A stretch of DNA of 30,664 bases, from the IMG/VR virus record IMGVR_UViG_2802429251_000007, positions 1 to 30,664 of that record. One strand, given 5' to 3'. Numbering within the stretch: the stretch's first letter is position 1; every line of letters begins with the position of its first letter. This document shows, in pieces, positions 1,124 to 1,590 of this stretch. This stretch comes from a virus. Taxonomy: Duplodnaviria > Heunggongvirae > Uroviricota > Caudoviricetes. The notes below the pieces were generated by a model, which saw only the letters and a program-made list of their open reading frames with translations, ran no database searches and had not been told where the DNA came from. The position numbers and the translations under genes were made by a program.

Positions 1124-1334
1124 TTTCATATTGGCGAAGTGACGGGAGTTAAATAGAATTGCTGCGGGTGCTTGAGGCTATCTACCTCGGGCATGAACAC
1201 CAACGGCAGATAGAGAAAAGCCCCAGTTAACATTACGCGTCCTGCAAGACGCTTAACATTAATCTGAGGCCAATTTCATGCTAGACACATGTAGGTTAGC
1301 CTCTTACGTGCCGAAAGGCAAGGAGAAGCAGGCT

Positions 1335-1490
1335 ATGAAGCAGCAAAAGGCGATGTTAATCGCCCTGATCGTCATCTGTTTAACCGTCATAGTGACGGCA
1401 CTGGCAACGAGGAAAGACCTCTGCGAGGTACGAATCCGTACCGGCCAGACGGAGGTCGCTGTCTTCGTAGACTACGAATCTAGAGAGTAA
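1335..1490 (+). CDS. hokD: Hok/Gef-family type I toxin (51 aa)
   Basis: MKQQKAMLIALIVICLTVIVTALATRKDLCEVRIRTGQTEVAVF matches Hok/Gef family from memory (closest recalled: HokD/RelF); AGGAG 9 nt upstream of ATG 1335; ORF-track start 1278 is an in-frame upstream extension. Confidence 0.75.
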   Translation: MKQQKAMLIALIVICLTVIVTALATRKDLCEVRIRTGQTEVAVFVDYESRE

Positions 1491-1560
1491 TAGTGACCAG
1501 GCGGGAGATTACTCTCCCGCCACCTCTGATGTGTCAGGCATCCTCAACGCACCCGCACTT

Positions 1561-1590
1561 AACCCGCTTCGGCGGGTTTTTGTTTTTATT
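1561..1590 (+). terminator. intrinsic terminator after hok
   Basis: AACCCGC-TTCG-GCGGGTT hairpin followed by T-run. Confidence 0.6.

What the first reader, a model, noticed from the sequence alone, without database searches (positions are those of the whole stretch)
1150..1590. hok-family type I toxin locus embedded in the prophage early region
ORF 1335-1490 encodes a 51-aa peptide essentially matching Hok/Gef family toxins (closest from memory HokD/RelF), with its own RBS and a strong terminator. Such loci normally include an antisense Sok-like RNA and fold-back elements in the leader. Here it sits among phage nin-like genes rather than on a plasmid and without adjacent relBE. Whether it is an active toxin-antitoxin module (prophage maintenance or phage defence) or a decayed copy is open.
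Basis: partly seen in the sequence, partly recalled or inferred. Interest (0 to 1): 0.48.

Follow-up and report, generated by a model that had tools for sequence, protein, structure and literature searches.

The report
Intact prophage hok/sok toxin–antitoxin locus

Summary
ORF 1335-1490 encodes a 51-aa Hok peptide (Pfam HOK_GEF, E 4e-22) with an AAGGAG ribosome-binding site and a terminator at 1561-1578. The leader 1166-1340 matches Rfam RF01794 end to end (108.6 bits, cutoff 59).

Every named hok/sok element could be mapped:
- hok promoter, tac, ucb, mok SD, in-frame mok (1278-1490) and dcb
- a 3' protective hairpin, and fbi paired with tac in the minimum-energy fold
- a minus-strand Sok gene (about 1286 to 1216)

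The Sok promoter is identical in sequence to the sokW promoter, whose -10 box was inactivated by mutation in Sakai prophage Sp5.

The peptide is 94% identical to HokW, which has been shown to be toxic and neutralised by sokW. It is 90% identical to K-12 HokD/RelF, whose locus lacks the whole leader. Related DNA occurs in 4726 of 5426 complete E. coli genomes, often in the same arrangement: hok, then DUF1367, DUF1364 and a Q-like gene.

Verdict: already known and not decayed. Its likely role is a Sok-gated membrane toxin released on prophage induction or on transcription shut-off. Activity itself is inferred, not shown. Interest is low.

The parts
1131..1159 (+). hok/mok mRNA promoter: -35 TTGGCG, 17-nt spacer, -10 TAGAAT. 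Predicted start at about G1166.
   Evidence: Promoter scan. The predicted start coincides with position 1 of the Rfam model match. The region is conserved in the E. coli and phage copies.
1166..1585 (+). Full-length hok mRNA, about 420 nt, predicted to fold into a closed and translationally inert form.
   Evidence: MFE -174.1 kcal/mol against -126.2 +/- 6.4 for 100 shuffles, z = -7.5. The 5' and 3' ends pair with each other.
1166..1177 (+). tac (translational activator element), GGGUGCUUGAGG. It can pair with fbi, with ucb, or locally in a 5' hairpin (1168-1177 with 1185-1194).
   Evidence: The tac/ucb stem is recovered by RNAalifold on 13 diverse hok leaders and is part of the Rfam consensus.
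1216..1224 (+). ucb (anti-SD box), AAAAGCCCC. It pairs with the mok SD in the full-length fold and with tac in the open form.
   Evidence: Helices 1220-1222:1268-1270 and 1224-1226:1264-1266 in the MFE. Columns 71-77 of the alifold tac stem.
1216..1286 (-). Predicted Sok antitoxin RNA, about 71 nt: a 15-nt single-stranded 5' tail, a long hairpin, then GGGGCUUUU at the 3' end. It is fully complementary to the mok SD and start region.
   Evidence: The start is inferred 7 nt after the -10 box, at the same offset from the mok AUG as the annotated sokC of K-12. The fold is -28.7 kcal/mol with a free 5' tail; the slightly longer 1208-1288 stretch has z = -5.1. The length agrees with the 71-nt complementarity reported for sokW.
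1293..1321 (-). Sok promoter: -35 TTGCCT (1321 to 1316), 17-nt spacer, -10 TAACCT (1298 to 1293).
   Evidence: The pattern is unique in the window, with 0 expected in shuffles. The segment is base-for-base identical to Sp5 sokW. Primers YO-421/422 of PMC8621323 mutate exactly this TAGGTTA to make the promoter-less control. The -10 box matches only 3 of 6, so the generic scan missed it.
1266..1303 (+). Sok-target hairpin of the open form. The mok SD GAGG(C) at 1266-1270 pairs with dcb GCCUC at 1299-1303. The loop CUAGACA (1281-1287) begins with a YUNR motif and is complementary to the Sok 5' end.
   Evidence: Rfam alignment. The outer stem is kept in 13 of 13 sequences at three of its five pairs, and one pair shows a compensatory change. 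The U-turn reading of the loop is my inference from published work on R1 hok/sok.
1278..1490 (+). mok reading frame, 70 codons, in frame with hok as in mokC and mokW. Its translation is needed to drive hok translation.
   Evidence: ORF list. It is 94% identical to Sp5 Mok and 70% to K-12 MokC.
1335..1490 (+). hok toxin gene, 51 aa. Its SD AAGGAG (1320-1325) is sequestered by CUCUU (1301-1305) in the full-length fold.
   Evidence: All invariant or near-invariant Hok residues are kept: C15, T17, T25, R26, L29, C30, E31, E40, V41, Y47 and E48.
1468..1482 (+). Hairpin UAGA-CUACGAA-UCUA presenting Tyr47 (TAC, 1473-1475) inside a TACG motif. This is a candidate TadA A-to-I editing site that would recode Y47 to C.
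   Evidence: The loop is identical to the 7-nt anticodon loop of tRNA-Arg(ACG) argQ and to the hokB site; K-12 hokC, hokD and hokE have UUACGAA instead. The stem appears in the full-length MFE. Editing of hok Tyr codons is published. It was not tested here.
1500..1521 (+). GC-rich 3' hairpin GGCGGGAGA-UUAC-UCUCCCGCC, the probable stop for 3' exonucleolytic processing and so the 3' end of the truncated mRNA.
   Evidence: MFE helix. There are compensatory differences between alleles, GGGAGA/UCUCCC here against GAGGGA/UCCCUC in E. coli PapRG. The role is inferred from R1.
1542..1554 (+). fbi (fold-back inhibitory element), CCUCAACGCACCC. It forms 12 bp with tac, with one bulged C.
   Evidence: duplex -21.5 kcal/mol. 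The pairing covaries across the family: GGGUGC/GCACCC, GGCGC/GCGCC in IncF plasmids, and GGGUGCC/GGCACCC in hokB.
1561..1585 (+). Intrinsic terminator of the hok mRNA: a 7-bp stem, a TTCG loop and a T-run.
   Evidence: It is conserved in E. coli copies and in K-12 hokD.

Best explanation
The region 1131-1585 is an intact hok/mok/sok type I toxin-antitoxin module of the hokW-sokW type, carried in the nin-like early region of a lambdoid prophage of Escherichia.

Proposed mechanism:
1. A promoter at 1131-1159 makes a stable mRNA of about 420 nt. Its 5' end (tac) pairs with its 3' end (fbi). The mok SD is held by ucb and the hok SD by an upstream CUCUU, so nothing is translated.
2. Slow 3' trimming back towards the hairpin at 1500-1521 removes fbi. 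tac then pairs with ucb, which exposes the mok SD and the Sok-target hairpin.
3. While the prophage is transcribed normally, a short-lived 71-nt antisense Sok RNA (1286 to 1216, with its own promoter at 1321 to 1293) binds that hairpin. This blocks mok translation, and therefore hok translation, and marks the duplex for RNase III.
4. When Sok supply stops, the matured mRNA is translated and the 51-aa Hok peptide depolarises the inner membrane. Sok supply could stop through prophage induction, loss of the element, or transcription shut-off by an infecting phage.

The most likely payoff for this phage is the one measured for hokW-sokW: earlier host killing or lysis and about two-fold more released progeny after induction.

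Shown here: all sequence and structure elements, and their identity or near-identity to a validated locus. Inferred: transcription, RNA processing, toxicity and the physiological role. The confidence of 0.88 refers to the identity as an intact hok/sok module; the lysis-helper role on its own I would put near 0.45.
For: - Hok peptide: Pfam 4.1e-22; 94% identical to HokW with all conserved residues kept.
- Leader: full-length Rfam RF01794 hit, 108.6 bits, scoring like bona fide loci such as hokC at 118 and Sp5 hokW at 113.5.
- Long-range pairing: tac with fbi, and SD sequestration, in an MFE with z = -7.5. The tac/fbi pairing covaries across plasmid and chromosomal loci.
- Open form: the tac/ucb stem and target hairpin are recovered by RNAalifold on 13 diverse leaders, with 10 of 25 pairs showing compensatory changes.
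- Sok: the promoter segment is identical to sokW, whose -10 mutation abolishes antitoxin activity. The Sok fold has a free 5' tail plus a terminator hairpin.
- Published function: HokW is toxic, is neutralised by sokW, and is produced on RecA-dependent induction, with 2-fold more phage released (PMC8621323).
- Inheritance: the exact Hok peptide recurs on at least 7 contigs in the same synteny, so the allele is stably inherited.
Against: - No expression or toxicity data exist for this copy.
- Thermodynamic folding does not by itself favour the open (tac/ucb) conformer of the truncated mRNA. It lies 10.3 kcal/mol above the MFE.
- This allele has G-to-A at 1184, which makes an A.C mismatch in the extended tac stem. 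That costs the open form about 2 kcal/mol more than it costs the MFE. The change is shared with L015, so it is not a sequencing error.
- The Sok -10 box is weak, 3 of 6.
- Chromosomal hok loci of E. coli were reported not to mediate post-segregational killing (cited).
- The Sp5 hokW copy lies in a different part of its prophage, so its induction phenotype may not transfer.
- The prophage carries an IS1 in a neighbouring regulatory gene and may not be inducible.
Confidence: 0.88

Rival explanations
1. The module is intact, but its main role is addiction (post-segregational killing). Cells that excise and lose the prophage keep the stable hok mRNA, lose Sok and die, which stabilises the prophage in the lineage.
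For: This is the founding function of R1 hok/sok, and all elements needed for differential RNA stability are present. hok genes are about four-fold enriched in prophages.
Against: [quoted passage not shown] In the Sp5 lysogen, deleting hokW-sokW had no effect on growth, and the measured phenotype was on induction. Prophage loss by clean excision is rare.
Confidence: 0.2
2. The module is intact and serves as an abortive-infection defence that benefits the lysogen. A superinfecting lytic phage shuts off host transcription, Sok decays, and Hok kills the cell before the invader matures.
For: R1 hok/sok on a high-copy plasmid reduced T4 plating by 42% and plaque size by about 85% (reported). Prophages often carry defence genes.
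Against: hok is not enriched next to defence systems. The R1 effect was modest and needed high copy number. Nothing in the window links hok to a sensor.
Confidence: 0.15
3. It is a silent or decaying copy, sequence-intact by recent descent but no longer able to produce Hok. The cause could be the A1184 mismatch locking the mRNA closed, or residence in a defective prophage.
For: There is an A.C mismatch in the tac-stem extension. In R1, single tac-stem substitutions abolish toxicity. Four of the five K-12 hok loci are considered inactive. An IS1 sits in the adjacent immunity-like region.
Against: There is no frameshift, stop or IS insertion in hok, mok or sok, and no missing element, unlike K-12 hokA, hokC, hokD and hokE. 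The R1 loss-of-function positions are G4-T6, which are unchanged here. The A1184 allele is shared by independent assemblies. The Rfam score is well above threshold.
Confidence: 0.08

Closest known systems
hokW-sokW of Sakai prophage 5 (Stx2 phage VT2-Sakai/933W type), Takada et al. 2021, PMC8621323
   Same: The Hok peptide is 94% identical (48 of 51) and Mok 94%. The leader 1166-1340 is nearly identical, including tac, ucb, the long Sok terminator hairpin, the Sok promoter and the hok SD; fbi is identical. mok is in frame with hok in both. The CUACGAA loop at Tyr47 is the same.
   Different: There are three amino-acid changes: V24A and C-terminal EK to RE. Six bases differ around the mok start and Sok 5' end, and one in the hairpin loop. 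G is replaced by A at 1184. The sequence downstream of fbi is different, and Sp5 lacks the 1561-1578 terminator sequence. The genomic position also differs: Sp5 hokW lies among hypothetical genes next to an 8.4-kb ORF, whereas this copy sits between early genes and the Q-like antiterminator.
hokD (relF) of the K-12 Qin cryptic prophage
   Same: The peptide is 90% identical. The DNA is collinear from the hok SD through fbi, the terminator and the downstream promoter-like region. It occupies the same slot in a lambdoid prophage, upstream of rem-like and Q-like genes. PGAP names the E. coli homologues of this locus 'HokD'.
   Different: K-12 hokD has no tac, ucb, mok start, Sok target or Sok promoter, because relBE abuts the hok SD. 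It gives no Rfam leader hit. The window has the complete leader and no relBE.
hok/sok of plasmid R1 and its IncF/IncHI relatives (the paradigm type I TA)
   Same: The architecture and RNA logic are the same: tac/fbi, ucb, mok SD/dcb, an antisense Sok overlapping the mok start, and 3' processing.
   Different: The tested plasmid Hok homologues are only about 33-39% identical in peptide sequence. HokW is reported as 44% identical to R1 Hok. The Sok terminator hairpin here is 16-18 nt longer than the Rfam consensus. mok is in frame with hok here. The carrier is a prophage rather than a plasmid.
hokC/mokC/sokC (gef) of the E. coli chromosome
   Same: mok is in frame, Hok is 76% identical, and the leader fold and Sok offset are the same.
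   Different: The K-12 copy has IS186 immediately downstream. The leader is shorter (153 nt). It is not on a mobile element.

Membership tests
[quoted passage not shown] | A peptide of about 50 aa matching the Hok/Gef family, with the conserved Cys, Thr, Leu-Cys-Glu and Glu residues | tested here: met
   Pfam PF01848 at 77.9 bits against a cutoff of 22. Conserved columns are kept. The NCBIfam Hok subfamily model hits at 52 bits, below its strict 73-bit cutoff.
[quoted passage not shown] | A conserved hok mRNA leader fold: tac/ucb stem, Sok-target hairpin and SD hairpin | tested here: met
   Rfam RF01794 model positions 1-157, 108.6 bits against a gathering score of 59. RNAalifold on 13 diverse leaders recovers the tac stem and target hairpin with compensatory changes; the window has one A.C mismatch.
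[quoted passage not shown] | A long-range tac (5' end) to fbi (3' UTR) pairing that closes the full-length mRNA | tested here: met
   12 bp, 1166-1177 with 1542-1554, in the MFE at z = -7.5. It covaries across family members.
[quoted passage not shown] | A mok reading frame with its own SD, overlapping hok | tested here: met
   GAGG at 1266-1269 and an ATG at 1278, open through to 1490. The mok SD pairs with ucb in the full-length fold.
[quoted passage not shown] | A cis-antisense Sok RNA gene with its own promoter and terminator, overlapping the mok translation start | tested here: met
   At sequence level only. The promoter at 1321 to 1293 is identical to the validated sokW promoter. A hairpin plus U-tract gives about 71 nt. 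Transcription was not tested.
[quoted passage not shown] | 3' processing of the mRNA and refolding into a translatable, Sok-accessible form | tested here: inconclusive
   A protective hairpin at 1500-1521 with compensatory variation is present. However, the enforced tac/ucb conformer of a truncated RNA lies 10.3 kcal/mol above the MFE. RNA mapping is needed.
[quoted passage not shown] | The peptide is toxic and is neutralised by the cognate Sok | not testable with these tools
   This has been shown for the 94%-identical HokW/sokW, and 42 of 45 diverse Hok homologues tested were toxic.
HokD/RelF locus of prophage Qin (relBE-hokD) | hok immediately downstream of relBE, with the sok/mok leader missing | tested here: not met
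   The alignment shows that homology to K-12 starts only at the hok SD. K-12 has no Rfam leader hit. No relBE is found in the window ORFs.
TadA-edited hok mRNAs (Tyr-to-Cys recoding) | A Tyr TAC codon inside a TACG motif, presented in a tRNA-Arg-like loop | tested here: met
   At sequence level only. The loop CUACGAA at 1472-1478 equals the argQ anticodon loop and is closed by a 4-bp stem. Editing itself is not testable here.

The most novel reading that the evidence does not exclude
In nin-region copies such as this one, hok is co-directional with the early-right operon in every example examined. The Sok promoter therefore fires head-on into antiterminated early transcription.

On induction, read-through from the early promoter could silence sok by transcriptional interference. 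It could also generate 5'/3'-extended hok RNAs that escape tac/fbi locking. That would make Hok a built-in 'delayed-early' membrane-damage timer. In the uninduced state the hok terminator would double as a nin-type terminator in front of Q.

The perfect tRNA-Arg-like CUACGAA loop at Tyr47 would add TadA-dependent Y47C recoding as a second gate on toxicity.

This would answer the question left open by Takada et al., namely which step of induction removes sokW RNA.
Probability: 0.15. Interest if true: 0.4.

Novelty: already known. Interest (0 to 1): 0.12.

Why it matters
It matters little beyond correct annotation. It shows that this prophage carries a complete hokW-sokW-type module rather than the truncated HokD/RelF form, even though annotation pipelines label E. 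coli homologues of this locus 'HokD'. If active, the module could influence lysis timing and phage yield on induction, prophage stability, or resistance to superinfecting phages. The nin-region orientation and the tRNA-like editing loop give two cheap hypotheses to test about how induction triggers Hok.

Tried and rejected
- The generic sigma-70 scan found no minus-strand promoter, which at first looked like evidence against Sok. It was rejected because the validated sokW -10 box (TAACCT, 3 of 6) falls below the scan's threshold, and the segment is identical to sokW.
- An exact 52-mer spanning the window-specific hok 3' end found nothing in the GTDB species-representative genomes. The source strain is therefore not a representative genome. 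The exact peptide is nevertheless in NCBI from E. coli and Escherichia sp..
- Folding truncated mRNAs ending at 1530-1545 did not give the open tac/ucb structure as the MFE. I treat refolding as unproven rather than absent, because the comparative data support the stem.
- 'Closest to HokD/RelF' was rejected in favour of HokW.
- A literature search for hok together with 'nin region' and 'lambdoid' returned nothing.
- The small hydrophobic ORF 968-1123 upstream and the Rem-like ORF 1709-1885 were considered as possible partners. Neither has a family link to hok/sok.
- Structure prediction and large protein-database searches were not used, because the family assignment was unambiguous.

Full report
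**Observation.** Window 1335-1490 (+) encodes a 51-aa peptide, MKQQKAMLIALIVICLTVIVTALATRKDLCEVRIRTGQTEVAVFVDYESRE. It matches Pfam HOK_GEF at E 4.1e-22, 77.9 bits against a cutoff of 22, and PHROG 251 'MokW-like host killing' at 1.2e-31. AAGGAG at 1320-1325 precedes the ATG by 9 nt. A terminator-like hairpin at 1561-1578 is followed by a T-run. That Rfam family is named 'sok', but its consensus starts with the hok mRNA 5' end and finishes at the hok AUG. The hit is therefore on the hok sense strand and describes the leader fold.

**Anatomy of the sense strand.**
- A promoter-like site, TTGGCG-17-TAGAAT (1131-1159), predicts a start at G1166. This is exactly position 1 of the Rfam model.
- Folding 1166-1585 gives -174.1 kcal/mol, against -126.2 +/- 6.4 for shuffles (z = -7.5).
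- In that fold the 5' end GGGUGCUUGAGG (tac, 1166-1177) pairs with CCUCAACGCACCC (fbi, 1542-1554).
- The mok SD GAGG (1266-1269) is paired with the AAAAGCCCC box (ucb, 1216-1224).
- The hok SD (1321-1325) is paired with CUCUU (1301-1305).
- This is the closed, untranslatable full-length state described for R1 hok.
- The mok frame starts at ATG 1278 and runs in frame into hok, giving 70 codons as in mokC and mokW.
- A GC-rich hairpin at 1500-1521 lies between the stop codon and fbi. Its arms differ between alleles by compensatory changes. This fits the stem-loop that protects the truncated hok mRNA from 3' exonucleases.

**Anatomy of the antisense strand.**
- TTGCCT-17-TAACCT lies at 1321 to 1293. 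The pattern is unique in the window, with none expected by chance.
- It was missed by the generic scan because its -10 box matches only 3 of 6.
- The segment is base-for-base identical to Sp5 sokW.
- The promoter-less control in Takada et al. was made by mutating precisely this TAGGTTA (primers YO-421/422).
- A start about 7 nt downstream (G1286) lies at the same offset from the mok AUG as the annotated sokC of K-12.
- The 71-nt RNA from 1286 to 1216 folds into a 15-nt free 5' tail plus a long hairpin, followed by GGGGCUUUU (-28.7 kcal/mol; z = -5.1 for a slightly longer stretch).
- This matches the 71-nt complementarity reported for sokW.
- The loop of the target hairpin, CUAGACA (1281-1287), is complementary to the Sok 5' end and starts with a YUNR motif. 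The U-turn reading is my inference from the R1 literature.

**Comparative support.**
- RNAalifold on 13 leaders independently recovers the tac/ucb stem and the mok SD/dcb target hairpin. The set comprised this window, Sp5, three further prophage copies, a plasmid that also carries phage-like genes (repL, baseplate), K-12 hokB/C/E and four plasmid loci. Ten of 25 pairs show compensatory changes.
- The tac/fbi duplex covaries: GGGUGC/GCACCC in prophage copies, GGCGC/GCGCC in IncF plasmids, and GGGUGCC/GGCACCC in hokB.
- K-12 hokD gives no leader hit. The alignment shows that its homology to the window begins only at the hok SD, with relE in place of the leader.
- hokA also gives no leader hit. 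IS150 abuts its truncated mok, which is annotated as a pseudogene.

**Closest relative.** The peptide is 94% identical to HokW, differing by V24A and a C-terminal EK to RE. It is 90% identical to HokD, 76% to HokC and 33-39% to plasmid Hok homologues. All conserved residues are retained. HokW is toxic and is neutralised by sokW from its own promoter, partly through RNase III and Hfq. [quoted passage not shown]

**How common it is.**
- A 551-bp query finds related DNA in 4726 of 5426 complete E. coli genomes, with a median of two places per genome. It also matches 79 phage records.
- The arrangement of hok followed by a Rem-like ORF, DUF1367 (NinB-like), DUF1364/YbcO and a DUF1133 Q-like antiterminator recurs in many prophages. 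Related arrangements occur in K-12 Qin, mEp460 and HannyBb.
- A recent survey reports hok to be four-fold enriched in prophages.
- The exact peptide is already in NCBI, from E. coli and Escherichia sp., on 8 contigs.
- The best DNA identity in complete E. coli genomes is only about 95%. Loci carrying the identical peptide have a different mok/Sok-promoter segment, in which mok is a short ORF ending in an AUGA overlap with hok. This copy is therefore a recombinant mosaic of known alleles.

**Caveats.**
- Nothing here shows transcription, processing or toxicity.
- RNAfold does not make the open tac/ucb conformer the minimum for 3'-truncated RNAs (10.3 kcal/mol worse).
- This allele has an A.C mismatch (A1184) in the extended tac stem, shared with L015. 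It slightly disfavours the open form.
- In R1, substitutions in the core tac stem abolish toxicity, but those positions are unchanged here.
- Chromosomal hok loci have been reported not to perform post-segregational killing.
- Sp5 hokW lies in a different prophage neighbourhood.

**An extra detail.** Tyr47 (TAC, 1473-1475) sits in a CUACGAA loop closed by UAGA/UCUA (1468-1482). The loop is identical to the anticodon loop of tRNA-Arg(ACG) and to the highly edited hokB site. K-12 hokC, hokD and hokE have UUACGAA instead. TadA edits such hok Tyr codons to Cys. Y47C recoding is therefore a plausible extra control layer, but it is untested.

**Verdict.** The locus is an intact member of a thoroughly described family, in its usual prophage location. 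It is already known, and interest is low. The only open points are experimental: whether this copy is active, which of the three roles dominates, and how induction removes Sok.

Noticed in passing
window 3405-4991: Directly after the DUF1133 Q-like gene (2831-3385) lie Rfam hits for c4-a1b1 (3405-3457), isrK (3418-3494) and C4 antisense RNA (3522-3606). An IS1 copy (about 3676-4443) follows, with terminal inverted repeats at 3670-3697 and 4420-4447. It is inserted 5-6 codons into an ORF6N/anti-repressor-like gene (ATG at about 3659; the remainder is 4509-4991). An uninterrupted version exists in E. coli MFDS1022581 (L004 5530-6392). The P1-like c4/ant-type immunity module of this prophage is therefore probably disrupted.
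   Followed up: partly
window 1468-1482: hok Tyr47 (TAC) sits in a CUACGAA loop identical to the tRNA-Arg(ACG) anticodon loop and to the strongly edited hokB site, making it a candidate TadA A-to-I (Y47C) recoding site. K-12 hokC, hokD and hokE have UUACGAA instead.
   Followed up: partly
window 1273-1318 versus L015-L019: Other Escherichia contigs encoding the identical 51-aa Hok carry a different mok-start/Sok-promoter segment. It has a 2-nt deletion and a 1-nt insertion, a -10 box of TAATCT, and a short mok ending in an AUGA overlap with hok. The hok leader is therefore mosaic, and Sok specificity may differ between otherwise identical toxins.
   Followed up: partly
window 1184: An allele-specific G-to-A change makes an A.C mismatch in the extended tac stem. 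It is shared with L015, so it is not a sequencing error. Its effect on activation is unknown.
   Followed up: partly
window 1601-1630 and 1709-1885: A promoter-like TTGAAG-18-TAGAAT lies just after the hok terminator and is conserved upstream of rem in K-12 Qin. It precedes a 58-aa ORF (PHROG 340). The gene at the same position in L015 is marked with Pfam Rem.
   Followed up: no
window 968-1123: A small, strongly hydrophobic ORF (51 aa from TTG) lies immediately upstream of the hok promoter. It has no Pfam or NCBIfam hit, and a weak terminator-like hairpin lies inside it (1058-1077).
   Followed up: no
window 5355-5508: Two prophage-borne tRNA genes, Thr(TGT) and Gly(TCC), lie upstream of the holin (6297-6626) and endolysin (6623-7006) genes.
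   Followed up: no
window 28135-28333: A full-length Rfam IS009 hit (189 bits) lies inside the tail-fibre assembly gene (27792-28370). The 'sRNA' family appears to overlap coding sequence.
   Followed up: no
window 3 kb downstream of hok (2544-3385): The YbcO/DUF1364 gene ends in ATGA, overlapping the start of the DUF1133 Q-like gene at 2831. A spurious 268-aa GTG ORF (2579-3385) in the ORF list is simply this gene's frame extended upstream.
   Followed up: no
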